Below are positions 14,676 to 47,304 of a stretch of DNA of 64,000 bases, piece after piece (position 1 is the stretch's first letter; each line of letters opens with the position of its first letter). The DNA comes from Candidatus Aminicenantes bacterium (GTDB lineage: Bacteria; Acidobacteriota; Aminicenantia; UBA2199). Below the pieces are notes generated by a model that saw only the letters and a list, made by a program, of their open reading frames with translations, was not told the origin of the DNA and ran no database searches. The stretch spans positions 939,409 to 1,003,408 of the forward strand of contig CAVXAL010000003.1 in NCBI GenBank assembly GCA_963759765.1. Direction: 5' to 3'. The position numbers and the translations under genes were made by a program.

Positions 14676-16158
14676 TTATTGGGATTGACGCTTCTGCTTG
14701 CGCCGCCAGTAGAGGTAGCCGGGAATGCCGGCCGCGACCAGGGCCACGCCCATCAGCGAATTGATCAGCGGCGCGCGGCCGCTGATATAGTTGCTGATAT
14801 CCGAATAGAGGGTGAACACGATATAAACCGACGCGAAGGCGATGAAAATCCAGGGCACGACCGGGTAGCCCCAGACCTTGTAGGGGCGCGGGGCATTGGG
14901 CATGGTCTTGCGCAGCACGATCACGCCCAGCGTGCCCAGGGCGTAGAAGATCCAGGAGACGAAGATCAGCATGTCGGTCAGTTGGTCGAAGGTGCCGCTG
15001 AGCACGAGGATCGAGGCCCAGACGCCCTGGACAATCAGCGAGGGGCCGGGAGTGTGGAAGCGCGGGTGGATGTTTTTCAGGCGCTTGAAAAAGAGTCCCT
15101 CCCTGGCCATGGCGTAGTAGACGCGGGCCGACATCATGATCGTGCCGTTGGTGGTGCCGAAGGTGGAGATCATGATGGCGATGGCGATCAGCGCGCCGCC
15201 CCAGCCGCCCAGAAACGAGTTGGCCACGTCGGTGGCCACCAGGTAGGACTGGCCGCTGCTCTCTGCGGCCAGATACTTGGCGCCCATATCATGGACCGGG
15301 ATGATATAAATGTAAGCCAGGTTGACCAGGAGGTAAATGGAGATGAAGACTAGGGCGGCAATGGCCATGGCCCGCGGCAGGTTTTTCTGGGGATTCTTGA
15401 TTTCTCCGGCCAGGTAGGTGACGTTGATCCAGCCGTCGTAGGCCCAAAAGGCGCCAGCCATGGCCACGATAAAAGCCAGAAAAACCGAAGAGAAACCGCT
15501 GCCGGCGGCGATCGTTGACTGGGTGAAATTGCCCAGCTGCCCGTTGCCGAACAGTGAATGCCAGCAGCACGATGGCCAGGATGGCGGCGATCTTCAGGCC
15601 GGTGAACAGCACCTGCACGGCGCTGCCCAGGCGCACGCCCAGGTAATTGAGGGTGGTCAGAAAGAGCAGCAGGCCGATGGTGCAGAGCTTCAGGCCGATG
15701 AATTTGAAGGGGGTGATGGCGCCCAGCCAGGGGATGTGGATGGCGAAGTTTTCCCAGGCGGGTCCCAGCCGCGGGAACCTGAAAAAATAACCCAGGGAAT
15801 CGGAGAACACGTAGGCGATGGAGGCGATCGAGCCGGTCTGGATGACGATGAACACGGCCCAGCCGTAGAGGTAACCGACAAAATCGTTGTAGCACTTGTT
15901 GAAGTAGACGTACTGGCCGCCCGCCTCGTGGAACATGCCCGCTATTTCGGCGATGCTCAGGGCGCCGAACAGGGTCATGGCGCCGGCCACCACCCAGACC
16001 AGCATCAGCAGCATGGGCGAGCCGAGCTGCGAGGCCATCAGCCCCGGTTTCTTGAAGATGCCCGAGCCGATCACCGAGCCGATGGCGAAGGCCACGGCAG
16101 CCAGCAGGCCGATTTCCCTGAGCAGTTCCGCCGGTCTCTTTTCTTCCATGCGATTCAT
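14676..16158 (-). CDS. APC-family amino acid permease (1 frameshift near 15550)
   Basis: N-half GSVIGSGIF (ORF 15289-16158) and C-half FWAYDGW..EIKNPQKNLP (ORF 14676-15467); paralogous to 10050-11477. Confidence 0.88.
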
Positions 16159-16224: not shown

Positions 16225-16881
16225 TTATTTATTTTTGCCGGTCATTTCGGCGATTAATTCTTCGCTGGTCATGACCCGCGCGTATGTGCCTTTCAAGGCT
16301 GCCAGCGCTGCGGCATGGGCCTGCTCGGCCGGGATTTTCTTGCCGTTGAATTCCAGATCGCGCGTGGCGCAGGCGTTGTGGACAACCGTGACAATGAAGC
16401 CCAGGTCCGCGGCGGCGCGCGCGGCCGCTTCCAGGCACAGGTGGGTCTGCATGCCGCAGATGACCAGGTTGCGGATGTTCAATTCTTTAAGCACGGCCAG
16501 CAGGTTGGTTTCGCGAAAGCTGTTGGCAAAGTGTTTGGTGATGATGGTTTCGTTTGGGTTGGGCCGGACGTTGGGATGGAACGCGTGTTGCGGGTCGCTT
16601 TCGCTTTTGCCGGGCGATATATGACGGACGTGGATGACGGGGTAATGGAGGGCGCGGAACGCCTCGAGCACGCTCTTCGCTTTCAGGCTGGCAGCCTCGC
16701 TTCCCTGCAGGGGCAGCAGGCCACCAGGGAAATAGAAATTCTGGATATCAACGATCAGCAGCGCCGTGTCTGCTGGCCGCGCGGCCGGGGCCGAAGCGCT
16801 GCGGGCCAGCACCAAGAGTGGCGGCAGGGCAAGAAAAACCAGAAATATAATTGCTTTTAGCAGCTGAAAATAACGTCTCAT
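16225..16881 (-). CDS. Isochorismatase-family cysteine hydrolase with N-terminal signal peptide
   Basis: ALLIVDIQN, ITKHFANSF, GMQTHLC triad pattern; basic + hydrophobic N-terminus. Confidence 0.87.
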   Translation of the reverse strand: MRRYFQLLKAIIFLVFLALPPLLVLARSASAPAARPADTALLIVDIQNFYFPGGLLPLQGSEAASLKAKSVLEAFRALHYPVIHVRHISPGKSESDPQHAFHPNVRPNPNETIITKHFANSFRETNLLAVLKELNIRNLVICGMQTHLCLEAAARAAADLGFIVTVVHNACATRDLEFNGKKIPAEQAHAAALAALKGTYARVMTSEELIAEMTGKNK

Positions 16882-16985
16882 TTCTTACTCCTTAAGACGG
16901 ACATTTCAGGCTGGGATTGTATTCCAAAATTATCTCAATAACAAACTGGTTAAAAAAATATATAATATGATATGGAGGTAGTGCG

Positions 16986-17165
16986 ATGAGTCAAGAGAGC
17001 GGAAATCAGAGTCGTGCCTCCCGGATCCGTGTCAAAATGGGTCTGGGGATTGTCATGGGAATAGCCATAGGAGTTGCCATTGGCACTGCCATGCACCACA
17101 TCGGAGCCGGCATAGCAATCGGCATCGCGATTGGTGCGGGTATCGGGACTGCGTTGACCGCGTAA
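16986..17165 (+). CDS. Small (59 aa) glycine-zipper membrane protein, below ORF-track cutoff
   Basis: GGAGG 7 nt before ATG; MSQESGNQSRASRIRVKMGLGIVMGIAIGVAIGTAMHHIGAGIAIGIAIGAGIGTALTA*. Confidence 0.7.
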   Translation: MSQESGNQSRASRIRVKMGLGIVMGIAIGVAIGTAMHHIGAGIAIGIAIGAGIGTALTA

Positions 17166-17253
17166 GAGAGAAGGGATAAGTAGCACGGCACGAACTGCTT
17201 GCACATGTTCGGGAGGGGTGTTTTTCAATAGAAAATATTCGTCATATCCAGAT

Positions 17254-17282
17254 TTGACAAGGGTTTTAAAAGGTTGTATTTT
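17254..17282 (+). promoter_or_regulatory. sigma70 promoter of tRNA-Leu
   Basis: TTGACA-17bp-TATTTT, 11 nt before tRNA. Confidence 0.7.
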
Positions 17283-17293
17283 CTGGAATGCAA

Positions 17294-17375
17294 GCGAAAG
17301 TGGTGGAATTGGCAGACACGTCAGATTTAGGTTCTGATACCGCAAGGTGTGGGGGTTCGAGTCCCCCCTTTCGCA
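17294..17375 (+). tRNA. tRNA-Leu (anticodon TAG), CCA not encoded
   Basis: Acceptor GCGAAAG/CTTTCGC, D-arm GGAATTGGCAGAC, anticodon arm TCAGA-TTTAGGT-TCTGA, long variable arm, T-arm GGGGG-TTCGAGT-CCCCC. Confidence 0.96.
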
Positions 17376-17412
17376 TGATAAATAAAATAATACAATTTTA
17401 GTTATATATCTA

Positions 17413-17441
17413 TTGAATTCCGCATTTTTTTATAATAAAAT
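17413..17441 (+). promoter_or_regulatory. sigma70-type promoter for the methyltransferase/kinase cassette
   Basis: TTGAAT-17bp-TAAAAT in AT-rich spacer. Confidence 0.5.
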
Positions 17442-17605
17442 AATTATATATGACCCGTTATGATTTTATCTTTAACGATTATTTGCGGGAGCGGACAGAG
17501 GGTAACCCAGCAGGAAAGAGGAGTGAAAAGGGAGTGACGATGAGCCTTTTTCCCATCTTAAACGCCCAGCAAACGGGAAACCGACAAAGGAGGTCCCGTT
17601 AGCCC

Positions 17606-19305
17606 ATGAGGAACTTTCAGGAAGATGTCCGCAAGGCCCGGCGCAAGACGCAGGACAATGCCTTCTGCCGCTTTGACACCGATCCGGCCGAGTTCACCGT
17701 CTACGAGCTTTCCGCGCACGGATTTTCCTTTCTCTGCCCCAAGGAGACCTGCTTTTTCAAGAAAGAGGCGATGCTCGAAAAGATTTCCATTTTTAACGCC
17801 GAGAAGCTGGAGATTATCCGCGCCTCAGGCCGGGTCATGCACGTGGCCGAGTTCGACTTCCAGAAGATGCGTGTGGGTGTCTTTTACACGAAAAAGACCC
17901 TGGACCGCACCATCTCCGGCAAGGTGCGCGTGCCGCGCAAAACGCCCAAGATCCCTTTGAATGCCATCATGAAGGTCAAGGTCAAGGGCGCCGAGCAGGA
18001 TATCCCGGCCAGGTCATGGATTTCACCGCTTCCACTGCGCGTATCGGATTCAACGGCAAAAGACCCGATGACCTTGAGATCGGCGATGAGATAACTGTAG
18101 CCATTCATGCTGAGGATAGTTTGCTTTATGACGGTTTGGGATATGTCTTGCGTAAGAGGGATGAGGGCGCAGAAATCATCATCCAATTTGCAAAATGGAT
18201 TGACTCTTCACGCGTAGAAACCGAAACCCAGGTGTATCAAAACCGACAAGTGATTTTCAGTGCATTGGATTCTATGCAGAAATACGATCTAGTCAAGGAG
18301 GAATATAAAGCGTTGATCAGTGACTGGCGTCTTTATCTGAGCCGGTTAAAGCAGGTTCTGGACAACGAGGAATTAAAAAACACCTATCGCAATGAATCGG
18401 ATAAAGAATTATTCTTAAAAAGCATAGAGGATAGACTTCTCAAAGTCCTACACGGTTATATTCACCAAATGAACCGAATGGTGGAATCCTTAAGCAAACA
18501 AGAAAGCACTATTTATAAAAAATATTACCGAGAAAACTTAAATCCCCTGCTTCGTTCATCCCCCTTGATTTCATCGATTATTGACAAGGACCTGGGCTAT
18601 GCAGGGGACTTCGAAACGATCAAGTTATTTTTTCAGAATCCCTATTCTGGAGACACGCTTTTCGGTAAATTTGTCAACAAGTATCTGTGCAGTTTGGATG
18701 CAGTTACTGCTCATGTGGACCGGATCCGTTACATTTCCGATCAATTGTGTTTTGCATACAAGAACTCTGCCAATGATTTTTCTTTTCTGGCTCTTGGTGC
18801 TGGACCGGCGGAAGAAGTGTTGCGTTTTGTTGAAAACAACTCTTTCGAGAAGCCAGTATTTGCAACCTTGATCGATATGGACGCTTACGCACTGGCTGAC
18901 TTTTCAGACCGCATGCAATATCTTCCCAAGAAGAATTTCACAGTTGATTTGCAGAACCTCAATGTAATTAACTTGATCCGTAATGAACCATCAATCGAGG
19001 ACCGGAAATACGACCTGAGTTATTGCGCTGGCATGTTCGATTATTTTTCTGACACATTCTGTAAAAGGCTAATCAAATACCTTATCAAATGTACAAAGCC
19101 CGACGGTGTAGCGATGTTTACCAACGTGAGCAAAGATAGCATGGCTCGCTACGTCATGGATTACTGCGGCGGTTGGGAGATCATCCACCGCAACAACGCG
19201 GAGATTGTAGCGTTGATTCCTCAGGAATATCACTACGAACTGTCCCACGATGAAAAAAAGGCCAATATTTATGCCAAGATCATCGTACCCAAACGAAACG
19301 GATGA
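17606..19305 (+). CDS. Tandem PilZ-like + class I SAM methyltransferase, PhcB-like signal synthase (1 frameshift near 18005)
   Basis: ORFs 17606-18094 and 18016-19305 join at atcccggccag; RKARR/ELSAHG PilZ-like motifs; DLGYAGDF, LALGAGPAEE, IDMD, YCAGMFDY. Confidence 0.75.
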
Positions 19306-21971
19306 TTAAGTTAGGGCGGCTCCTAAAAAAAATCAATTACCAGATCCCAGTAGAATTCGTCACGTCATACGAATCGAGCCTTCAGGAAATCCGACGTGCC
19401 AGGCTGATCCCAATTTTCTTTTTTAGCATCATACTGATTCCGGCAGCGGTCATTTTCGACAACTTGATTTTCCATACGCTCTGGCGTCGACTTTTCACTG
19501 TTCGCTTAATTTCCATGGCAATCTGCACAGGGCTTTATTTCTTGACCACCAAAATCCCCCTGAAAAACTATCCCCGAGCCATGTGCCAGGTGCTAAGCGT
19601 GGTTGTGGCCACCACCATTGCCTATTTGAGTTACTTAACAGGAGCATTTGAGAGTCCCTATTACGCTGGCCAGATTCTGCTATTCATCAGTATGGCCATG
19701 ATCATGCCATTGGGAATGGTCGGCTCTCTCTTTGCCGGATTTATGATATTGATCATTCATTATGGTATTAACCTGCTGCCGGCCTTGCTTGCCCATCAGG
19801 CAGTAGTTTGGCCATTGGTCTGGAACAGCATCTATTTTTTAACTTTTTCGTTTGGCATGGCCCTCATCGCTTCGCAGATGTTGGAACACAACCGCCGACA
19901 GATTTTTATCAAGACCGAAGAAGAAACTATCCGCAACAAGAAGCTGGAGGAATCGCGACGGCAGATTGACGCCCTCTCCAAGACCAAGAACCGCTTCATC
20001 TCCAACATCACCCACGAATTGAAGACACCGCTCTCAATTGTGATCGGCAACACCGACATCATCCTCGAACGGGCCGAACTCCTCGACGAGGCGATGACCA
20101 ACCAGCTGCAGATCGTCCAGCAGGCGGCCTTCCAGCTGGCCACCCATGTCGACCGCATCATCGCCGTCTCCACCGCCGACGACCCGGAGCTGAAGCTGCT
20201 GACCGAGAACTACGACTATGGCGGCGTGGTGCGCAACATTTTCAATCTCTTCGAGCCCAAGGCCAGCGACGAGGACATCACCTACACCCTCAACCTGCCC
20301 CTGCAGACGCTGGTGGCCAATATCGACGTGGTGCGCATCGAGGAAGTGCTCAACAACCTGATCCAGAACGCCTTCAAATTCTCCTCGGCCGGGGGGAATA
20401 TCAACGTCACCGTGTCCACGGACGGGCAGTGGATCTACACCGAAGTTTCGGATACCGGCGTGGGCATCCCCGAGAGCCGCCAGGGGGAGATCTTCGAGCG
20501 GCTATACCAAGCCGACGAGGTCCTTTCCAAGCGCCACGGCGGCATCGGCCTGGGGCTCTACCTCTGCAAGCGCAACGTCGAACTGCACGGCGGCGCGATC
20601 ACCGTCCATTCGAGCGCCGGCAAGGGCAGCTCCTTCAAGTATACCCTGCCGCTGCACATCAACCAGACCAGCGAGGTCAAGAACCGGCCCTATGTTGGGA
20701 CCGAACAGCGCTCCCAGGCCGAGCGCCGCACCGGCATGGACCGCCGCATGGCCGAGCGCCAGAGACGCTTCGAATACCAGCAGACCCTGGGCCTGGACGA
20801 CCTGGCCAAGATGACCTTTGTCGAAGATATCCACAACTACGAGAACATCAAGCCGGCCGAACCCACCGTGCTCATCGTCGAGGACAATCCGCGCATGATG
20901 AAGGTCATCGCCGAGGCGCTGTGCGACGATTACAACCTGATGCTGGCCCTCACCGGCCAGGAGGCGCTGGAGAAGCTGCAGAAATATCCCGGCCGCATCT
21001 CGCTCATCCTCTCTGACATCATGATGCCCGGCATGAGCGGCTTCGATTTCTGCAAGACGGTGATGGCCACGCCCGAGTGGAAGAACATCCCGCTGATCTT
21101 CGTCACCGCCTTGATGAAGGAGGATGACCAGCTGCGCGGCTTCGCCCTCGGCGCCACCGACTACATCGTCAAGCCCTACAACATCAAGATCCTGCGGGAA
21201 AAGGTGGGCCACTGGATTTCCCGGCGCCAGTACGAGTCGCTGCTCCAGGACATGTCCACCTCGCTGGAGACGCGGGTCAAGGAGATCTCGCGCATCAAGG
21301 ACATCATCCTGCACGAGATCCGCAATCCGCTGCAGCTGATCGGCGGAGCCGACTTCTATTTGCGGCGCATGGGCAACACCCTGTTCAAGGCCTCGGCCGA
21401 GGAGGAGCGCAAGTGGAAGAAGAGCCTGAAGATGCTCGGCCAGGGGATCGAGTCGATCAAGTCGGTGCTGGAGACCTCCCAGAGCCTGGAAGAGTTGGGG
21501 CTCTCCTCCAAGAAACCGGAGCCGGTCTCGACGCTTTTCGACGAGGCCCTCGCCCAGTGCCAGCACCTGCTCAAGGGCATCGACCTGCACAAGGATCTGC
21601 GGGTGATGGCCCACAAGACGGTCCTCTGCAACAAGAAGATGCTTTCCCAGGTGTTCGTCAACCTCATCCGCAATGCCGCCGAAGCCATCCGCGAGAAAGT
21701 TCCCGCTGAGGCGGGGGTGATCCGCATCGCCTCGATCAAGCAGGATGAGGAGACGCTGCTGCTGCGCGTCGAAGACAACGGCATCGGCATCGCGCCGGAG
21801 GCCAAGGAACAGCTGTTCCGTTTCCGCTTCACCACCAAGAAAGACGGCATGGGTGTGGGGCTGCACCTTTCCAAGATCGTCCTCAAGATGCATGAGGGCA
21901 ACATCGACGTCGAGTCGGAGCCGGGAAAAGGCACGGCCTTCATCATCACCCTGCCCGTGCAGAATACCTGA
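19302..21971 (+). CDS. Hybrid sensor kinase TM-HisKA-HATPase-REC-HisKA-HATPase (PhcS-PhcR-like fusion)
   Basis: About 5-6 TM; ITHELKTPL, NAFKF, DTGVG, GIGLGL; VEDN..SDIMMP..VKP; LHEIRNPL, NAAEA, DNGIG, GMGVGL; ATGA overlap with upstream gene. Confidence 0.92.
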   Translation: MIKLGRLLKKINYQIPVEFVTSYESSLQEIRRARLIPIFFFSIILIPAAVIFDNLIFHTLWRRLFTVRLISMAICTGLYFLTTKIPLKNYPRAMCQVLSVVVATTIAYLSYLTGAFESPYYAGQILLFISMAMIMPLGMVGSLFAGFMILIIHYGINLLPALLAHQAVVWPLVWNSIYFLTFSFGMALIASQMLEHNRRQIFIKTEEETIRNKKLEESRRQIDALSKTKNRFISNITHELKTPLSIVIGNTDIILERAELLDEAMTNQLQIVQQAAFQLATHVDRIIAVSTADDPELKLLTENYDYGGVVRNIFNLFEPKASDEDITYTLNLPLQTLVANIDVVRIEEVLNNLIQNAFKFSSAGGNINVTVSTDGQWIYTEVSDTGVGIPESRQGEIFERLYQADEVLSKRHGGIGLGLYLCKRNVELHGGAITVHSSAGKGSSFKYTLPLHINQTSEVKNRPYVGTEQRSQAERRTGMDRRMAERQRRFEYQQTLGLDDLAKMTFVEDIHNYENIKPAEPTVLIVEDNPRMMKVIAEALCDDYNLMLALTGQEALEKLQKYPGRISLILSDIMMPGMSGFDFCKTVMATPEWKNIPLIFVTALMKEDDQLRGFALGATDYIVKPYNIKILREKVGHWISRRQYESLLQDMSTSLETRVKEISRIKDIILHEIRNPLQLIGGADFYLRRMGNTLFKASAEEERKWKKSLKMLGQGIESIKSVLETSQSLEELGLSSKKPEPVSTLFDEALAQCQHLLKGIDLHKDLRVMAHKTVLCNKKMLSQVFVNLIRNAAEAIREKVPAEAGVIRIASIKQDEETLLLRVEDNGIGIAPEAKEQLFRFRFTTKKDGMGVGLHLSKIVLKMHEGNIDVESEPGKGTAFIITLPVQNT

Positions 21972-22450: not shown

Positions 22451-23133
22451 ATGAAGGAGATCGTGCTGCACGTCGACGGAATCAGCAAAAGTTTTCTCCA
22501 ACCCGACCGCCAGCGGCTGGTCATCTTGCAGGGCCTATTTCTGCAGGTGGCCCGCGGCAGCATCGTGGCCATCAGCGGCGCCTCCGGCTCGGGCAAGAGC
22601 ACTCTGTTGCACCTGGTGGGTTCCTGGACCGGCCCGATACGGGCCGCATCCTGTTTGAGGGCCAGGATATCTTCCAGCTCAGCGGTAAAAAACTCTCCTT
22701 GTTTCGCAACCAGACGCTGGGCTTCGTCTTCCAGTTCCATTACCTTATGCCCGAGTTGAGCGTGCTGGAAAACGTGGCCGCGCCTTATCTGATGCGGCGC
22801 TTCCGCACGGCCGATGCCCTGGTTGCGGCCGCGGAACTGCTGGCTGCCGTGGGACTGGCCGAGAAGCACGCTTGCATGCCGCACCAGCTTTCCGGCGGAG
22901 AGAAGCAGCGGGCGGCCATCGCCCGCAGCCTGATCAACGGTCCGCGCCTGCTGCTGGCCGATGAGCCCACGGGCAACCTGGACTGGAAAACGGGCGAAGC
23001 GGTTTTCAACCTGTTCAAATCCCTGATCCGTGAGCGCGGGTTGACCGCGCTGATCGCCACCCACAACCCCCAGCTGGCTGCCCTCAGCGACGAGCGTTTC
23101 CTGCTGGCCAACGGCAGCCTGCAGCGGTTGTGA
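22451..23133 (+). CDS. lolD: Lipoprotein-releasing ABC transporter ATP-binding protein (frameshift near 22620)
   Basis: GASGSGKST, GFVFQFHYL, LSGGEKQR, LADEPTGNLD. Confidence 0.8.
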
Positions 23134-23188: not shown

Positions 23189-24465
23189 ATGCCCGAAGTG
23201 CTGGCGGTGATTCTGGGCGGCGGGCGGGGCGCGCGGCTCTTTCCCCTGACCAGATACCGGGCCAAACCCGCGGTGCCCATCGGCGGCAAGTTCCGCCTGA
23301 TCGACATCCCCATCTCCAACTGCCTGCACTGGGACATCAAGAAGATCATGGTGCTGACCCAGTTCAACACCGCTTCCCTGCACCGGCACATCACGCAAAC
23401 CTACCGCTTCGACAGCTTTTCCGAGGGTTTCCTGCAGATCCTGGCCGCCCAGCAGACCATCGGAGAACTCCGACTGGTACCAGGGCACGGCCGACGCCGT
23501 GCGCAAGAACATCCAGCTACATCAAGAACCAGCGGGTCGGATTATGTGGTCATTCTCTCCGGCGACCAGCTCTACCGCATCAACCTGCGTGAGTTCCTGC
23601 AGCGCCACCGGGAACGGAAAGCCGACATCTCCATCGCCGTCAAGCCGATCACGCGCGCCCGCACCCACGAATTCGGCATCATGCAGATCGACGACCAACA
23701 GCAGATCACCCGTTTCGTGGAGAAACCGGCCGGCAAGGACGCTGCTGGCCGAGCTGTTTACCCCGGATGAATACCTGGGTTTGAAAGACGAGGGGTTGAA
23801 CTATATCGCCTCCATGGGCATCTACATTTTCAACACCGACGTGCTGATCGAGGTGCTGGAAAACAACAGTCAAGGAGGACTTCGGACGCCAAATCATCCC
23901 GGACGCCATCGGCAGCCACCGGGTCTTCGCTTACGTGTTCAACGATTACTGGGAGGACATCGGCACGATCAGGGCCTTTTTCGAGGCCAACCTCGATTTC
24001 GCCAACCCCATGCCGCATTTCAATTTTTACGACGAGGAGGCGCCCATCTACACGCGCAAGCGCTTTCTGCCCGGTTCCAAGATCGAAAACTGCGACGTCC
24101 ACTATTCGCTGATTTCGGACGGTTCGATCATCGAAGGCGGCAAGCTGGCCAATACGGTCATCGGCATGCGTTCGGTCATCCGCGCCAACTCTTACCTGGA
24201 GCGGGTGGTGATGATGGGTGCCGATTTCTACGAGATGGAGGAAGAGATGCAGGAGAACGTCCGCCATGGCCGGCCTCCGGTCGGGGTGGGGTACAACGCC
24301 ATCATCAAGAACGCCATTCTGGATAAAAATGTTCGCCTGGGCGAAAACGTGCGCATCGTCAACGAGCAAGGATTGCAGGACTTTACGGCTGAGCGCTATC
24401 AGATCGTCGACGGGATCGTGGTCATCCCCAAGGACATGGAGATCCCCGACGGTTTTGTCATCTGA
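23189..24465 (+). CDS. glgC: Glucose-1-phosphate adenylyltransferase (several frameshifts)
   Basis: ILGGGRGARL, RAKPAVPIGG, WYQGTADAVR, ILSGDQLY, ASMGIY, YWEDIGT spread over three frames. Confidence 0.92.
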
Positions 24466-42773: not shown

Positions 42774-43570
42774 TCCCAGCAGCCGGAGCGCAGCTCCTCC
42801 AGGTCCAGGGTGAGGAAGCGCAGGCCGAATCTTTTGGCCCGGCGGATGAGTCCCTCCCTCAGGGCCAGTAGGCTCGGGAAATTCTTTTCCGACGTTTCGA
42901 TGCGCACGCCGCCTTCCATGTGCCGCACCCGCAACGGAAAGATGCCCTGGCGCGACAGGTACGCTTCGAGTTGGCCAATGGTATCCATCTGCCGGCGCTG
43001 CAACCGATGGCCGTAGGGAAAACGGGTGGCCAGGCAGGTGGAACTGGTCAGGAAATATTCGTCCATCCCTTTTTTACGGAGCTGCTGGACAATCTCTTCA
43101 GAACTGATGGAGGCTTCCTGCAGCGGCGAGCGGATGTTCAGCTGAGCCAGGGCCCTGCGGCCGGGCCGGTGTTCGGAGAGGTCCGAGTTCGTCGAACCAT
43201 CCACGATCCAGGGGACGTTGAATTTTTTCGCTTCCGCGCGCAGCGCCCGGAACATTTTCATTTTGCAGTAGTAGCAACGCAGGCGGGGATTGGCGGAAAG
43301 TCTCTTATCTTCCAGATAGTCAAGATATATTTTTTTAATTTGTATGCCCAGATTTTTTTTCAAGTAAGCGACTCGATGCAGGCTGCCACTGGAAATGAAC
43401 GAGGTGTGCACGAAATAGGGAAAAACATTTGCTTTGCCCAGGGTTTCCAGCGCGGTTTTAAGCAGATAAAAGGAGTCCTTCCCACCTGAAAATGCGACCA
43501 AAACCTTTCCGTATGCCCTTAACCGTTCTTGCAACAACTTTTTTTTACTTGCAAATCCTTTTTTCTTCAT
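42770..43570 (-). CDS. larE: LarE-like ATP-dependent sulfur transferase
   Basis: AFSGGKDS, RCYYCK, DGS..D..RPG, CLATRFPYG. Confidence 0.82.
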   Translation of the reverse strand: MKKKGFASKKKLLQERLRAYGKVLVAFSGGKDSFYLLKTALETLGKANVFPYFVHTSFISSGSLHRVAYLKKNLGIQIKKIYLDYLEDKRLSANPRLRCYYCKMKMFRALRAEAKKFNVPWIVDGSTNSDLSEHRPGRRALAQLNIRSPLQEASISSEEIVQQLRKKGMDEYFLTSSTCLATRFPYGHRLQRRQMDTIGQLEAYLSRQGIFPLRVRHMEGGVRIETSEKNFPSLLALREGLIRRAKRFGLRFLTLDLEELRSGCWD

Positions 43571-43676
43571 TAAGGCTATTTTACAGCGATTTTATCGGTT
43601 TTCCTAGGGAATGTCCTGTTTTTTTTAAAAAAAAAGCGATATGTCATAAAAAAAGGACATTTTTCCCCTTATTTGT

Positions 43677-43692
43677 TGGCAAAGAATATGCT
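43677..43692 (+). promoter_or_regulatory. sigma54 (-24/-12) promoter candidate
   Basis: TGGCAAAGAATATGCT (GG-N10-GC) about 60 nt before ATG 43751; upstream palindrome ATGTC-N10-GACAT. Confidence 0.6.
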
Positions 43693-43750
43693 TCCTTTTT
43701 AATATGGAAGAAGTAAAATATCCCTTTTCCAGGGAAAGGAGAATTTAAAA

Positions 43751-45547
43751 ATGAAAAGATTCGCTTTGTTTATTTTAATGACACTCTTCTTGGGCTTGGG
43801 GCTGTTTGCCGATCCATTGATCATTTACGGCCACATCACCATGACCGATCCGGAAGTGAAGATATCCCGGCCCGATGGCCAGGAAGTTCGCAATGCCATG
43901 CTCAACATGCCGATCCTGCTTGGAGACAACATTATCACGCCGGCCAGCGGCCGCTGCGAGATCCAGTTCGACAACGGCACCATTTTCCGGCTTGACAAGA
44001 ACAGCGAATTGAAAATCGGCACCGTTCTTTCCAAGAGCATGACCAGCAATTGGAAGGTGACCACGCTGAACCTGCTCAAGGGCCAGCTCTATGGCATCAT
44101 CAATACCTACAACCGCGAGATGTTCCAGGTGACCACGCCCAATGCTGCGGTCAAGATGGACGCGGGTTCCAAGAACGTGGTGGCTTACAGCGAGACGGCG
44201 GGCAGCAGGATCGATGTGATTTCGGGCAAGGTTTACGCTCTGTACGGAGCCAAAGAAGATGCGTTGAAAGAGGAGAAGATCGGTCGGGATAAGAGCGTGC
44301 GTATTGGCCCGGACAGCAAGTTGCTCAATGACTCGACAAAGGACGCCGATTTCATTTTTTGGAACGAGGGCATCAACCGCAATTTCGACGAGGCGCATCC
44401 CTCCAGCGTTCTGCCCAAGCCGATTTACCGTTACCCGGCCAGCGTGATTTACTGGGCGGAGAAGTGGTCCAGCCGTTACGGCGAATGGGTCTGGGATTCC
44501 ATTTTGGGTTATATCTGGCGGCCCTATGCGGATACCTTCATAACCAACCGGCCCTTCTTCAACGCCAATTACGTGACCATCGGCGGCAAGCTGTTCATGG
44601 TTCCTCAGGAAGCCTGGGGCTGGGCGCCCGCTTACCTGGGTACGTGGCACTGGACGGCCAAGAGCGGCTGGGTCTGGATCCCCGGTGATGCGTTCGGCTT
44701 GTCTGGCGATAATTTCGGTGAATACGGAATGATCGATGCTGAAAGCTGGATGGATTATTCGTTCAGATACTGGGGTTTCAACAACCTCTACGAGTGGCTG
44801 GTACTGTATTATGACTGGTATTATGGATATCACACATTCAATTTTAATCGCAACGCAGCGATTCCAGGTCCTCCCCACGGGGGCCCTGCTGAAAGTAAAC
44901 TCATGGGAGAAATTCCCATCAAAGGGTACGGCGGGAGTGGTTTTACTGCTGGTATTAAACTGAAAGAGCTGCCCGAGCCTGTCCGTTCGATTATAAAGCA
45001 ACTGGATCGCCTGTCACCTGAAAAGCGCGCCGAACTGATGCCCCAACCGCCGAACAAATTTTTCAGCGGCCCCATGATCAAGGGTGGCGAGGCGTTGACG
45101 CCGCCCAAGCCGCTCCGCCAGGAAACCATCCGCTCCGGCGAGCAGGCCCAGCGCCAACCCTATTATCCCAGCATGCGGCCGGATACCAAGCCCATCGCCG
45201 GTATCCCTGCCAGGCCTGTGGTTGGGACCCCGCATGTCGGTTTCCGCAACTGGAACCCGGATGTGCGCGTCGCCCGGCAACTGGGCATTGACTTCCGTTA
45301 CCTTTCCGGACGCAACGAGTTCGCTTTCCCGAGGCTGGGAGTAACGTCGAGCACAATCTCTTCGTTTCAGCGCCAGACATTGAATGCCAGCGTCCACGGT
45401 TTCAATAATGGGGGCGGCGGATTCGCCGGAGGTTTTTTTAGGAGGGATGATTCGTCAGGCAGCCAGTCCTCTGCGACGAGCAGCGGCACTCACCGCAGCT
45501 CGAGTTCAAGCAGCAGCAGCGGAGGCAGCGAAAAAATTAAGAATTAG
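43751..45547 (+). CDS. Exported FecR-domain + DUF6600-like protein
   Basis: Signal peptide; GRCEIQFDNGT..RLD (FecR-like); YGEWVW..WRP, WGWAP..GTW..GWVWIPG; Ser/Gly tail. Confidence 0.75.
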   Translation: MKRFALFILMTLFLGLGLFADPLIIYGHITMTDPEVKISRPDGQEVRNAMLNMPILLGDNIITPASGRCEIQFDNGTIFRLDKNSELKIGTVLSKSMTSNWKVTTLNLLKGQLYGIINTYNREMFQVTTPNAAVKMDAGSKNVVAYSETAGSRIDVISGKVYALYGAKEDALKEEKIGRDKSVRIGPDSKLLNDSTKDADFIFWNEGINRNFDEAHPSSVLPKPIYRYPASVIYWAEKWSSRYGEWVWDSILGYIWRPYADTFITNRPFFNANYVTIGGKLFMVPQEAWGWAPAYLGTWHWTAKSGWVWIPGDAFGLSGDNFGEYGMIDAESWMDYSFRYWGFNNLYEWLVLYYDWYYGYHTFNFNRNAAIPGPPHGGPAESKLMGEIPIKGYGGSGFTAGIKLKELPEPVRSIIKQLDRLSPEKRAELMPQPPNKFFSGPMIKGGEALTPPKPLRQETIRSGEQAQRQPYYPSMRPDTKPIAGIPARPVVGTPHVGFRNWNPDVRVARQLGIDFRYLSGRNEFAFPRLGVTSSTISSFQRQTLNASVHGFNNGGGGFAGGFFRRDDSSGSQSSATSSGTHRSSSSSSSSGGSEKIKN

Positions 45548-45609
45548 AAGCAAATAAATTTTGATTTTTTTAATTAATTATTAATCTCATCTATTGCCTC
45601 ACCTCCTCT

Positions 45610-46546
45610 CTAAAATAATCTTATTCTTATGCCTATTTTTAATGAAACTCCGCTGTAATCCAAAATTGCTTTTCTTATATCGTTTATAAAATAAATGCTT
45701 GCATCTGGTATTTTTTCCCAAATTTGTAAATCTGCAACTCGACCACCAAAATGTAGATCCTCCCTTGTGTAATAATAAAGAATCCCTTTTTCTTCATCAT
45801 GATCACCATAATCAGTGTCCGTTTTCCTAATTCCTTTTAAACCTCTTATTTTTACAAGCCTTCCTTGAAATTCCATTACCAAGGCCACGTTTTTAATAAT
45901 GGTGTATTCCAGAAGAGCCGAACCTTGAAATCCAATCGAGAATTTTTTCTCGGCATCCATAGATATCGAGCTCCATCCTGTGCCTCCCAATGGAAATGTA
46001 ATATCGGTTTTTGAAAAGCGTGAAATTTTACCTGAATAAAAGCCAATACCTCCCCCGAATAAAATGTTTATTTTTGAAATCAAAGGAATTGTGTAATACA
46101 CATTCAATCTTATGGGCATGGCAACTTTTATATCTGGGTTAAAAGTATATACAAGTATCTGCGGCCCCGCACCCCCTGTCATTGTATAAGTGAGAGAGGC
46201 TCTCGTTGCTTCTATGAAAAGGGCCTGATGTGGAAATCCCCAGACTGATTTTGGGGGAAATATCCATTCTGAATTCCGCTTCCCAATTGCTGGTCCTGCC
46301 ATTGAGCTTTGTTATCTCTCCTTCCACAAGGTTTGGATTATTCTTTCTCAAAAATTCAAATGTAGCGTTATTATTAAAAGATTCTAAGCATTTATTGACA
46401 TCTCCAATTGTTATGGAATCTACTCCACCCGTTACCTTTATGCTGAATTTCGGTTTGAAACTTTTTTTTTCTTCCGCTTGGGCAATACTGGATAACGATA
46501 TGAAAAAGAAAAATAGAATAAGACAACTCACCTTCCTGTGTTGCAT
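45610..46546 (-). CDS. Outer-membrane beta-barrel protein, very AT-rich (frameshift near 46200)
   Basis: ORFs 46139-46558 + 45610-46302; signal peptide; C-terminal DYSGVSLKIGIRIRLF; paralog of 29667-30554. Confidence 0.78.
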
Positions 46547-46710
46547 AAACTTGCCCACCTCTTTTAATTACCTTTCCAAAATCTCCGATTATTATGTAAT
46601 ATTAAATTAATACTCTGTCAACTTTTTTATGTATCAATTTTCATTTTTTCATCACTTTTACGGATTTTTTTATCTTACGATTAAATAATGATATTCCGAA
46701 TTATATTCGT

Positions 46711-47304
46711 TTAAATGAAAGCGCGGTATGCGCGAACGATATCCTGGAAAACAGAATCTAATTCGCCGTTGCCGTCAATGAGACGGATGTTGACGCCTGA
46801 AAGCTTCAGGAAATTTTCGCGGACTTTCTTGAGGAATGCTTCCTTTTCAAACAGCTTGGCTTTTGTCTGGCGGCTCTGGCGGATGCGTTTCAGAGCAGTT
46901 TTCACTTCCACGTCTATGACGAAAACGATGTCGGCTTCGGGCGCGAAAGCCCGGTTGGCCGCCAGGATCTCTTCCATGTCCAGGCCGCGCGCGCCCTGGT
47001 AACAGGCATTGGAATAAAAATAGCGGTCGAGCACTACGATCTTGCCTGCCTGCAGAGCGGGGCGGATGTTTTGCTCCACGTCCCAGCGCCGGTCCGCGAT
47101 AAACAACTCCAGTTCCTGTAGCGGCGGCAAATGGGAGCGGGTACGGGCCAGGCTGCGGATGCGCTCGCCGGTCGGCCCGTCTGAGGGTTCGCGCAGCCAG
47201 ACGTTGGCCTGGCCGTTGTCGCTCAGGGAGCCGCAGAAGAGGCGCGACAGGCAGGTCTTGCCCGAGCCGTCAATGCCTTCGAAAACGATGAGCCGCGGCA
47301 ACAT
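46711..47304 (-). CDS. tmk: Thymidylate kinase
   Basis: FEGIDGSGKT, REP, LDRY..S..YQG. Confidence 0.95.
   Translation of the reverse strand: MLPRLIVFEGIDGSGKTCLSRLFCGSLSDNGQANVWLREPSDGPTGERIRSLARTRSHLPPLQELELFIADRRWDVEQNIRPALQAGKIVVLDRYFYSNACYQGARGLDMEEILAANRAFAPEADIVFVIDVEVKTALKRIRQSRQTKAKLFEKEAFLKKVRENFLKLSGVNIRLIDGNGELDSVFQDIVRAYRAFI

What the first reader, a model, noticed from the sequence alone, without database searches (positions are those of the whole stretch)
18030..20040. AT-rich block spans the synthase catalytic domain and receptor sensor domain: possible specificity-cassette swap
Seen: composition changes inside both genes. Hand counts of 60-nt lines give 38/60 GC at 17821, 18/60 at 18361, 26/60 at 19741 and 40/60 at 20521. 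The first PilZ-like domain and the kinase/REC core have host-like GC-rich codons, while the methyltransferase and TM sensor do not. Known: the staphylococcal agr locus varies in a block covering signal production and the receptor sensor domain. Inference: signal and receptor specificity were exchanged together by recombination in conserved flanks, which would imply several signalling dialects.
Basis: partly seen in the sequence, partly recalled or inferred. Interest (0 to 1): 0.8.

Follow-up and report, generated by a model that had tools for sequence, protein, structure and literature searches.

The report
Swapped signal-synthase and sensor gene block
A 1.9-kb stretch with foreign base composition runs across the border of two neighbouring signalling genes, covering the enzyme part of a likely signal synthase and the membrane sensor of its partner kinase, and relatives show the same piece has been exchanged repeatedly, much like the 'dialect' cassettes of known bacterial quorum-sensing systems.

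Summary
Third-codon-position GC falls from 0.81 to 0.52 at about 18019 and rises to 0.90 at about 19929.

The low-GC block lies inside two translationally coupled genes:
- a PilZ-like/PilZ-like/SAM-methyltransferase gene (17606-19305), which some sources name PhcB-like;
- a hybrid histidine kinase (19302-21971).

The block covers the second PilZ-like barrel, the helical cap and the methyltransferase, plus the six-helix membrane sensor. The first PilZ-like domain and the kinase/receiver core have host-like composition.

Independent short-read contigs bridge the left junction in 3 of 4 runs (two studies) and the right junction in 1 of 4. An assembly chimera is therefore unlikely. The same contigs show that the frameshift at 18003/4 belongs to the window's assembly only.

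Relatives show non-uniform divergence at the same places:
- Three kinase pairs have cores 79-92% identical next to sensors 44-51% identical, with steps at residues 195-208.
- Block and core trees conflict.
- A second locus, L009, has a GC3 step at kinase codon 211-212.

For the window itself there is no tree conflict and no donor was found. The block is only about twice as diverged as its core predicts. That it carries signalling specificity is inferred, not shown.

The parts
17294..17375 (+). tRNA-Leu (anticodon TAG) directly upstream, followed by an AT-rich spacer with a promoter-like site at 17413-17441. Context only.
   Evidence: ARAGORN; promoter scan. No direct repeat of the tRNA end and no integrase nearby.
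17606..19305 (+). Synthase gene: PilZ-like 1, PilZ-like 2, helical cap and class I SAM methyltransferase. The family length is 563-575 aa. Here it is read as two ORFs (17606-18094 and 18016-19305) because of a 1-nt deletion in the assembly at 18003/4.
   Evidence: Fragment 1 aligns to homologue residues about 1-135 and the 429-aa ORF from about 137-141 on. 3 of 3 read contigs covering the site carry +C behind 18003 and T>G at 18001, which restores the frame. AlphaFold2 model pLDDT 91: barrel, helices and Rossmann fold. Methyltransferase matches in the PDB.
17606..18018 (+). Host-like 5' part of the synthase gene (first PilZ-like domain), GC3 0.81.
18019..19929 (+). Low-GC3 block (GC3 0.52). 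It holds synthase residues about 138 to the end (PilZ-like 2, helical cap, methyltransferase), the ATGA stop/start overlap at 19302-19305, and kinase residues 1-209 (membrane sensor).
   Evidence: Change-point scan, 2*deltaLL 254; left support 17999-18061, right support 19926-19974. Hydrophobic segments at kinase residues 32-165, with the sixth helix read by eye.
19302..21971 (+). Hybrid histidine kinase of 889 aa: membrane sensor, HisKA 229-293, HATPase 342-452, receiver 523-635, and a second kinase-like module about 660-889.
   Evidence: Pfam. Closest proteins are P0078 at 72% and P0079 at 70%.
19930..21971 (+). Host-like kinase/receiver core, GC3 0.90. It starts in the conserved linker and H-box stretch (…IRNKKLEES…SRFISNITHELKTPLSIVIG).
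   Evidence: Junction alignment. No paralogous DNA in the assembled genome.

Best explanation
The locus is a two-gene, translationally coupled signalling module.

Gene A is a small-molecule SAM-dependent methyltransferase preceded by two PilZ-like barrels. Several sources name its relatives PhcB-like, that is, like the enzyme that makes the 3-hydroxy-fatty-acid methyl ester signal in Ralstonia.

Gene B is a membrane sensor kinase fused to a receiver plus a second kinase-like module. This has the domain order of PhcS followed by PhcR.

In this genome the middle of the operon was replaced by homologous DNA from a lower-GC relative. The replaced part is the synthase's second barrel, cap and catalytic domain, together with the kinase's membrane sensor. 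The first PilZ-like domain and the whole cytoplasmic phosphorelay core remained resident.

Both crossovers lie in short, strongly conserved stretches: the PilZ1/PilZ2 linker motifs, and the linker/H-box just after the last membrane helix.

The part that makes the signal and the part that senses it travel as one piece. Such an exchange would therefore change the 'dialect' without disturbing downstream wiring, as in agr, comQXP and phc.

Shown:
- the composition step at synonymous sites;
- that it exists in reads from independent runs;
- the same mosaic boundaries and conflicting trees in relatives.

Inferred:
- the direction of the exchange (block foreign, flanks resident), from composition;
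- the recombination mechanism;
- that the methyltransferase makes a diffusible signal, that the sensor binds it, and that the block sets specificity.

My odds are about 0.8 for a real recombinational block exchange and about 0.45 that it is a signal/receptor specificity cassette.
For: Composition
- GC3 is 0.81 | 0.52 | 0.90 with sharp junctions at 18019 and 19929.
- Neighbouring genes have GC3 0.72-0.82.

Reads
- Left junction bridged by X1 rec3 (17900-18587), X2 rec10 (17810-18069) and X3 rec19 (17641-18147).
- Right junction bridged by X1 rec6 (19591-20191).
- Each bridging contig has 1-4 mismatches.

Family
- The same two-gene operon is present, with uniform composition, in G021, G010 and G090; L074 is nearly flat, with a small GC3 step (0.28 to 0.37) at kinase codon 255.
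- L009 has a GC3 step of 0.49 to 0.67 at kinase codon 211-212, 2*deltaLL 44.8.

Identity steps in kinase pairs
- P0078/P0079: 0.44 to 0.92 at residue 201 (support 194-207).
- P0100/P0101: 0.45 to 0.92 at residue 208 (206-214).
- P0087/P0088: 0.51 to 0.79 at residue 195 (190-199).

Synthases follow the sensors
- o203_101 vs o209_100: synthase 57/43/44/59%, sensor 46%, core 93/95/88%.
- o22_87 vs o14_88: PilZ1 74%, then 47/54/60%, sensor 54%, core 81/82/72%. The synthase step is at residue 116 (89-119).

Trees of 18 operons
- Core tree: (o22_87,o14_88) 100/100 and (o203_101,o209_100) 100/100.
- Block tree: (o09_85,o14_88) 100/100 and (o22_87,o203_101) 96/99.
- AU tests: p 0.0039, 0.0498, 3e-5 and 1.8e-5.

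Window against its nearest operon
- Block/core distance ratios are 1.85 (synthase part) and 2.34 (sensor).
- Over all 153 pairs the medians are 1.14 and 1.10 (IQR 1.02-1.29 and 0.97-1.26).
- PilZ1 is 1.70 against a median of 1.47.

Function
- 16 of 76 homologues carry a source's PhcB-type name and 14 of 76 a precomputed PilZ hit.
- The model has a methyltransferase fold.
- The kinase domain order comes from Pfam.
- In Ralstonia, PhcB and PhcS group by signal type while PhcR and PhcQ group by phylotype (PMC8578825, passages read).
Against: - In the block tree the window still groups with the same nearest operon as in the core tree (99/98). Its own exchange is shown by composition and excess divergence, not by topology.
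- On the sensor alone, the clade {window, P0078, P0079} is not rejected (AU p 0.187).
- Against P0002/P0199 the synthase shows no identity step at the left junction.
- No closer donor was found. The best block relatives are 62% identical for the synthase part and 56% for the sensor. A sensor-only search returned only the query itself and one 45% hit.
- Amino-acid make-up (GARP/FYMINK) of the window's block is not clearly different from that of its relatives.
- The 4 runs laid show only this allele, and no loose ends at the block junctions were listed.
- Operon pairs other than L074, G021 and G010 rest on equal contig lengths.
- The tested clades were chosen after the trees were seen.
- Curated models do not confirm PhcB, PilZ or MASE8 for the window's proteins.
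- In both compositional cases (window and L009) the block is the AT-richer part. That would also fit a non-transfer cause.
Confidence: 0.6

Rival explanations
1. The exchange is real but has nothing to do with signal specificity. The methyltransferase would not be a signal synthase (for example, a c-di-GMP-gated modification enzyme). The block would simply be a convenient recombination unit bounded by conserved motifs, an ordinary case of sensor-domain shuffling in histidine kinases.
For: - No curated PhcB, PilZ or MASE8 model reaches its cut-off for the window's proteins.
- A profile of the family finds no solved structure by sequence.
- Structural matches are to many kinds of small-molecule methyltransferase, with no clear substrate class.
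- Other genes of this genome also show conserved catalytic domains joined to AT-richer variable domains, such as the Ser/Thr kinase-TPR paralogues.
Against: - The synthase's catalytic part and the sensor share one history in three independent cases.
- The two genes are always adjacent and overlap by ATGA here, and likewise in G021.
- 16 of 76 relatives are named PhcB-like by a source.
- The same synthase-plus-sensor versus downstream split is reported for phc in Ralstonia (PMC8578825) and for comQXP (PMC6334282).
Confidence: 0.25
2. The block is native and was not imported. Its GC3 would be locally depressed because a long-lived hypervariable region rarely recombines with conspecifics. It would therefore miss GC-biased gene conversion, or be under weaker codon selection, while protein divergence comes from diversifying selection.
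For: - In both loci with a composition step (window and L009) the block is the AT-richer part.
- L074 shows a small step in the same direction, 0.28 to 0.37.
- Variable C-terminal domains of the kinase-TPR paralogues are also AT-richer than their kinase domains.
- The window's block still groups with its core's nearest relative.
Against: - The steps are abrupt, with support intervals of about 50-60 nt.
- A GC3 difference of 0.3-0.4 within one operon is very large for a local rate effect.
- Block and core trees of relatives conflict outright, with block clades rejected on core data at p of about 1e-5. Local rate differences cannot produce that.
- G021 and G010 show no step.
Confidence: 0.1
3. 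The mosaic is an artefact of assembly, binning or polishing of a metagenome-assembled genome. The genome has 4 contigs, 73.7% completeness and many frameshifts.
For: - The assembly carries many indel errors. Split genes occur at 14676-16158, 22451-23133 and 23189-24326, and many half-out-of-frame ORFs occur genome-wide.
- One such error (18003/4) lies inside the left junction's support interval.
Against: - Contigs assembled separately from public runs of two studies cross the left junction (3 of 4 runs). One crosses the right junction (1 of 4 runs). All are at least 99% identical.
- A chimera would need two switches 1.9 kb apart between sequences about 60% identical at protein level.
- The best holder may be the source sample, so the right junction has only one, possibly non-independent, bridge.
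Confidence: 0.03

Closest known systems
Bacillus subtilis comQXPA pherotype locus
   Same: The polymorphic stretch covers the signal-making genes and the 5' (membrane sensor) end of the kinase gene, while the rest of the kinase and the regulator stay conserved (PMC6334282, passages read). Here the block covers the synthase's catalytic part and kinase residues 1-209, with the break inside the kinase gene just before the H-box.
   Different: - The signal there is a modified peptide made by an isoprenyl transferase. Here it is a methyltransferase of unknown product.
- Here the left break also lies inside the synthase gene, leaving a resident PilZ-like domain.
- Coexisting alleles within one species were not seen here.
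- Cross-talk was not tested.
Ralstonia phcBSRQ quorum-sensing operon (3-OH-PAME / 3-OH-MAME types)
   Same: - A methyltransferase synthase sits next to a membrane sensor kinase, followed by a receiver plus kinase-domain protein.
- PhcB and PhcS group by signal type, whereas PhcR and PhcQ follow phylotype (PMC8578825, passages read).
- Relatives of gene A are named PhcB-like by a source in 16 of 76 cases.
- Residues 515-889 of gene B have PhcR's domain order, and a similar length to the 368-374 aa reported for PhcR.
   Different: - Identity to the approximately 475-aa PhcB-named proteins is only 25-27%, and no curated PhcB model matched.
- Two PilZ-like barrels are fused to the synthase.
- The PhcS-like and PhcR-like parts are one polypeptide.
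- The break lies inside the kinase gene rather than between genes.
- The host is an uncultured member of a sulfate-reducer-related phylum. A PhcQ or PhcA counterpart was not looked for.
Staphylococcal agr specificity groups
   Same: A hypervariable block spans signal processing, the signal itself and the receptor's sensor domain, flanked by conserved sequence.
   Different: The signal is a peptide thiolactone, the protein families are different, and the polymorphism is within a species.

Membership tests
Pherotype / specificity-cassette loci (agr, comQXP type) | The variable block spans the signal-production gene and the receptor's sensor domain, while the kinase core is conserved | tested here: met
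   Three kinase pairs have cores 0.79-0.92 identical and sensors 0.44-0.51 identical. Partner synthases follow the sensors. The window's GC3 block has the same limits.
Pherotype / specificity-cassette loci (agr, comQXP type) | Several alleles coexist within one species or population | tested here: inconclusive
   The 4 runs (2 studies) laid on the locus show this allele only, and no loose ends at the block junctions were listed. Contigs drop rare variants. P0078 and P0079 (core about 92% identical) may or may not be one species.
Pherotype / specificity-cassette loci (agr, comQXP type) | Cognate signal-receptor specificity, with cross-inhibition or no cross-talk between alleles | not testable with these tools
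   Needs bioassays.
Phc-type quorum sensing (PhcB/PhcS/PhcR) | The synthase is a PhcB-family SAM-dependent methyltransferase | tested here: inconclusive
   - Class I methyltransferase fold, and a GxGxG motif (LALGAGPAEE) read in the sequence.
- E of about 1e-20 to 1e-26 and 25-27% identity to 424-490-aa methyltransferases, three of which a source names PhcB-like.
- Pfam Methyltransf_25 scores 17.7 bits, below its cut-off of 27.
- No NCBIfam match.
- No authentic PhcB sequence was available for comparison.
Phc-type quorum sensing (PhcB/PhcS/PhcR) | An adjacent membrane sensor kinase, plus a receiver and kinase-domain regulator | tested here: met
   Domain order is sensor, HisKA, HATPase, receiver, second HATPase, all in one protein. 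Here the parts are fused rather than separate.
Phc-type quorum sensing (PhcB/PhcS/PhcR) | The product is a 3-hydroxy fatty acid methyl ester sensed by the kinase; PhcQ and PhcA lie downstream | not tested
   Chemistry is not testable here. Downstream genes are NlpC/P60 and an ABC ATPase. No search for PhcQ or PhcA was made.
PilZ domain (PF07238) | Match to the Pfam model above its gathering score | tested here: not met
   - No PilZ hit for the window's two N-terminal parts at E up to 1.
- P0002 scores 14.1 bits, below the cut-off of 22.5.
- 14 of 76 homologues carry a precomputed PF07238 hit.
- The model shows a beta barrel at residues 1-58 of the 429-aa ORF.
I therefore call it 'PilZ-like' only.
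MASE8 membrane sensor (PF20968) | Match to the Pfam model above its gathering score | tested here: not met
   The window's sensor has 0 families at E up to 1. P0078 and P0079 score 14.9 and 14.4 bits, below the cut-off of 26.2. Many homologues carry a precomputed PF20968 hit.
tRNA-linked genomic island | An integrase and a direct repeat of the tRNA 3' end bound the foreign DNA | tested here: not met
   tRNA-Leu lies 230 nt upstream, but the block starts 640 nt further on, inside a gene. There are no long direct repeats and no integrase among the neighbouring ORFs.

The most novel reading that the evidence does not exclude
Uncultured sediment and peat bacteria related to sulfate reducers may carry a phc-like lipid-ester quorum-sensing system in which:
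- the synthase is gated by PilZ-like (possibly c-di-GMP-binding) domains;
- the PhcS-like and PhcR-like proteins are fused;
- the system diversifies into pherotypes by swapping one cassette (synthase catalytic part plus membrane sensor) at two fixed hot-spot junctions.

At least three sensor types would then sit on near-identical kinase cores in the window's closest clade. The cassette's low GC3 could additionally record long-term recombination isolation of the dialect region.
Probability: 0.35. Interest if true: 0.75.

Novelty: new variant of a known kind. Interest (0 to 1): 0.62.

Why it matters
Co-exchange of a signal synthase and its receptor's sensor is how agr, comQXP and phc systems create mutually unintelligible dialects. 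All known cases come from cultured pathogens or model bacteria.

This case has three useful properties:
- It is in a different protein family and an uncultured anaerobe lineage.
- Both junctions are mapped to within about 50 nt.
- The same junction recurs in at least four other operons.

That yields a concrete, testable map of which part of an uncharacterised methyltransferase/kinase pair should carry specificity. It also points to a natural splice site, just before the H-box, for building chimeric sensors.

Separately, the case shows that a GC3 change-point scan within genes can find such cassettes from a single genome.

Tried and rejected
Searches for a donor or for closer DNA
- Donor search: the block's synthase part had a best hit of 62%. 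A sensor-only search returned the query itself plus one 45% hit.
The metagenome scan gave only 60% and 48% relatives (L008, L009). The genome-contig scan gave one 57% relative (L074).
- Family, order and phylum genome searches found the synthase gene in 3 of 71 other family genomes (the kinase search found its partner kinase in 5 of 71) and in 1 of 400 other sampled phylum genomes. None was closer than 50-56%.

Other negatives
- Own-genome DNA searches found no paralogue of block or core.
- No repeats or mobile-element marks at the junctions.
- A family profile against PDB sequences gave 0 hits.
- NCBIfam gave nothing for the synthase.
- Amino-acid make-up (GARP/FYMINK) gave no clear signal.
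- No RNA holder was listed among the sequencing runs.

Artefact found on the way
- A first genome-wide scan for GC3 contrast was dominated by frameshift artefacts. I replaced it with a scan that also requires low total GC.

Tools and material not available
- Literature searches for PhcB with PilZ (5 papers hold both terms; the 4 listed are unrelated) and for PhcB with Desulfo and quorum sensing (3 papers, none relevant) were seen as listings only.
- Supplements of PMC8578825 (the PhcR/PhcQ trees) were not available.

Full report
**Where and what.** The window is G000:C3:939409-1003408, from a 2.85-Mb, 4-contig assembly of GC 0.56-0.60 and 73.7% completeness. The locus reads as follows.
- tRNA-Leu at 17294-17375, then an AT-rich spacer.
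- Gene A at 17606-19305. It is seen as two ORFs, 17606-18094 and 18016-19305.
- Gene B at 19302-21971, 889 aa, overlapping gene A by ATGA.
- Neighbours are ordinary: amino-acid permeases, an isochorismatase, NlpC/P60, an ABC ATPase and a nucleotidyl transferase.

GC in 300-nt windows drops from about 0.54 to 0.38-0.48 between about 18050 and 19990, then rises to 0.60-0.66.
- The drop is at synonymous sites. GC3 is 0.81 for the first 135 codons of gene A and 0.49 for the rest. It is 0.55-0.60 for the first 200 codons of gene B and 0.85-0.97 afterwards.
- A two-change-point likelihood scan gives 18019 (support 17999-18061) and 19929 (support 19926-19974). GC3 is 0.81 | 0.52 | 0.90, and 2*deltaLL is 254.
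- Neighbouring genes have GC3 0.72-0.82.
- Membrane proteins elsewhere in the genome have GC3 0.76-0.96 in their in-frame parts. The sensor's hydrophobic make-up therefore does not explain the dip.
- Of 1906 ORFs of at least 300 aa, 21 show an in-frame mix of low-GC and high-GC stretches. This kinase is one of them.

**What the genes are: gene A.**
- It belongs to a family of 563-575-aa proteins. Fragment 1 aligns to residues about 1-135 and the 429-aa ORF to residues about 137 onward of the same homologues.
- 14 of 76 listed homologues have a precomputed PilZ hit. 16 of 76 carry a source's name 'extracellular factor 3-hydroxypalmitic acid methyl ester biosynthesis protein', which is PhcB's name.
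- The window's own pieces do not reach Pfam or NCBIfam cut-offs.
- An AlphaFold2 model of the 429-aa part (pLDDT 91) shows a small beta barrel, a long helical cap and a Rossmann methyltransferase domain.
- Foldseek finds many small-molecule SAM methyltransferases, with no clear substrate class. A sequence profile finds nothing in the PDB.

**What the genes are: gene B.**
- It has a membrane sensor, with hydrophobic segments between residues 32 and 165 and one more read by eye.
- It then has HisKA, HATPase, a receiver and a second kinase-like module.
- That is the domain order of Ralstonia's PhcS followed by PhcR. PhcR is a receiver plus histidine-kinase domain of 368-374 aa (PMC8578825, passages).

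**The frameshift is not real in the organism.**
- Contigs from public runs laid on 16800-21200 differ from the window at 18001 (T>G) and carry one extra C behind 18003. This holds in 3 of 3 runs that cover the site.
- By arithmetic, this puts 17606 and 18016 in one frame with no stop between them.
- The assembly has many such breaks. In the reads the site spells GATC, so an error typical of long reads at methylated sites is possible. This is an inference.

**Not a chimera.**
- The left junction is crossed by X1 rec3 (17900-18587), X2 rec10 (17810-18069) and X3 rec19 (17641-18147). That is 3 of 4 runs, from two studies.
- The right junction is crossed by X1 rec6 (19591-20191), 1 of 4 runs. X3 rec21 ends 26 nt past the breakpoint and was not counted.
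- The bridging contigs have 1-4 mismatches each.
- One of these runs may be the source sample.

**Relatives with DNA.** The operon is rare.
- The synthase was found in 3 of 71 other genomes of the family, and the kinase search found its partner kinase in 5 of 71. The synthase was found in 1 of 400 other sampled genomes of the phylum.
- G021, G010 and G090 are low-GC genomes, and their operons have flat GC3. L074, also low-GC, is nearly flat, with a small step of 0.28 to 0.37 at kinase codon 255 (2*deltaLL 14.3).
- L009, a 51%-GC metagenome contig, has GC3 0.49 over the whole synthase and the first 211 kinase codons. GC3 is 0.67 afterwards and in the genes downstream. The step is at codon 211-212, support about 192-226, 2*deltaLL 44.8.
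- That is the same place as in the window, codon 210.

**Relatives known only as proteins.** The nearest kinases are P0078 (72%) and P0079 (70%).
- Against P0078, the core segments are 74-84% identical and the sensor 56%. Against P0079, the core is 75-82% identical and the sensor 45%.
- P0078 and P0079 are 89-95% identical to each other in the core but 46% in the sensor.
- Change-point scans of identity, in the window's numbering:

| Pair | Identity before | Identity after | Step at residue (support) |
|---|---|---|---|
| P0078/P0079 | 0.44 | 0.92 | 201 (194-207) |
| P0100/P0101 | 0.45 | 0.92 | 208 (206-214) |
| P0087/P0088 | 0.51 | 0.79 | 195 (190-199) |

- Control pairs (P0095/96, P0086/91, P0092/94) have sensors at least as similar as their cores.
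- The steps fall at the start of a stretch that is nearly invariant in all eight aligned sequences: …QIF…E.EKIRN.KL.ES…ID.L.K..SRFISNITHELKTPLSIVIG.

**Do the synthases go with the sensors?** I matched synthase and kinase proteins to operons by equal contig length. The match was verified on DNA for L074, G021 and G010.

Percent identity by segment:

| Pair | PilZ1 | PilZ2 | Cap | Methyltransferase | Sensor | Core segments |
|---|---|---|---|---|---|---|
| o203_101 vs o209_100 | 57 | 43 | 44 | 59 | 46 | 93/95/88 |
| o22_87 vs o14_88 | 74 | 47 | 54 | 60 | 54 | 81/82/72 |

- For o22_87 vs o14_88 the synthase step lies at residue 116, support 89-119.
- o14_88's cap and methyltransferase are closer to o09_85 (64% and 70%) than to o22_87 (54% and 59%). 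Its PilZ1 is closer to o22_87 (74% against 61%).
- Trees of 18 operons agree with this.
  - Core tree: (o22_87,o14_88) and (o203_101,o209_100), both 100/100.
  - Block tree: (o09_85,o14_88) 100/100 and (o22_87,o203_101) 96/99.
- AU tests on the block data give p 0.0039 for {o22_87,o14_88} and 0.0498 for {o203_101,o209_100}.
- AU tests on the core data give p 3e-5 for {o09_85,o14_88} and 1.8e-5 for {o22_87,o203_101}.
- These clades were named after the trees were seen, so the p-values are indicative only.

**The window's own block.**
- The window groups with o02_78 (P0199 and P0078) in both trees: 100/99 in the core tree and 99/98 in the block tree. There is no topological conflict.
- On the sensor alone, {window, P0078, P0079} is not rejected (p 0.187).
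- What stands out is the amount of divergence. The path to o02_78 is 0.35 in the core tree and 0.93 in the block tree.
- Normalised distances, block over core, are 1.85 for the synthase part and 2.34 for the sensor. Medians over 153 pairs are 1.14 and 1.10. PilZ1 is 1.70 against a median of 1.47.
- Together with the GC3 step, this fits a block that came from a cousin lineage with lower GC. That lineage is not in the databases searched.
- Amino-acid make-up gave no clear extra signal.
- No paralogue exists in the assembled genome, which argues against intragenomic conversion.
- No repeats or mobile-element marks flank the block.

**How it most likely works.**
- Shown: a compositionally foreign 1.9-kb piece is bounded by conserved motifs and is present in independent reads. 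Relatives carry mosaics with the same bounds.
- Inferred, step 1: homologous or homology-facilitated replacement of the operon's middle.
- Inferred, step 2: gene A makes a diffusible methyl ester, and gene B's membrane sensor detects it.
- Inferred, step 3: because the catalytic cap and the sensor move together, an exchange changes the dialect. The PilZ-like input domain and the phosphorelay core stay as they were.
- The parallels are comQXP and phc. In comQXP, comQ, comX and the 5' end of comP are variable (PMC6334282). In phc, PhcB and PhcS follow signal type while PhcR and PhcQ follow phylotype (PMC8578825).
- agr was recalled only, and no paper on it was read.

**Rivals.**
- *Real exchange without a role in specificity (0.25).* Nothing here shows signal chemistry.
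- *Native block with locally depressed GC3 (0.10).* In its favour, the block is the AT-richer part in both compositional cases. Against it are the abrupt steps and the outright tree conflicts.
- *Assembly artefact (0.03).* The bridging contigs argue against it.

**Novelty.** Literature searches for PhcB with PilZ, and for PhcB with Desulfo and quorum sensing, listed nothing relevant (listings only). The phenomenon is of a known kind. The protein family, the fused architecture, the breaks inside both genes and the host lineage are new.

**Limits.**
- No DNA was available for the closest relatives, so no synonymous-rate or breakpoint test could be run.
- Operon pairing is partly heuristic.
- Only one contig bridges the right junction.
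- Supplements of the papers were not available.

Noticed in passing
window 14676-16158 (-), 22451-23133 (+), 23189-24326 (+); genome-wide examples such as C4:1376-2698: Many genes are split or run half out of frame: an amino-acid permease, an ABC ATPase, a nucleotidyl transferase and a secretion ATPase. This suggests an indel-rich long-read assembly and may explain the 73.7% completeness of a 4-contig genome.
   Followed up: partly
G000 C3:760381-763344, C3:486969-489089, C3:820459-823875, C3:613373-616315, C4:43911-47045: A family of Ser/Thr-kinase plus TPR paralogues has GC3 0.8-0.9 in the kinase domain and 0.35-0.6 in the C-terminal part, in frame. Some kinase domains are nearly identical between copies. 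The same 'conserved catalytic part GC-rich, variable part AT-richer' pattern is seen at the locus studied here.
   Followed up: partly
G000 C2:808667-811561 (-): A large restriction-modification-like gene has GC3 0.5-0.88 in its N-terminal 550 codons and 0.20-0.34 in its C-terminal 350 codons. This may be a swap of the target-recognition part.
   Followed up: no
L009:1858-6330: A metagenome contig carries the same two-gene operon, and its GC3 steps from 0.49 to 0.67 at kinase codon 211-212. Here the whole synthase gene belongs to the low-GC3 part.
   Followed up: yes
window 43000-47000: A low-GC island (GC 0.40-0.53) holds a FecR/DUF6600 protein (43751-45547) and ORFs without Pfam matches. It lies between ribosomal protein S20 and thymidylate kinase.
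   Followed up: partly
window 17999-18004: Where the assembly is wrong (T>G at 18001, one C missing behind 18003), the read contigs spell GATC. This may be a methylation-linked consensus error of long reads.
   Followed up: no
window 16986-17165 (+): A small 59-aa glycine-rich membrane ORF with GC3 0.58 and no Pfam match sits just upstream of the tRNA-Leu.
   Followed up: no
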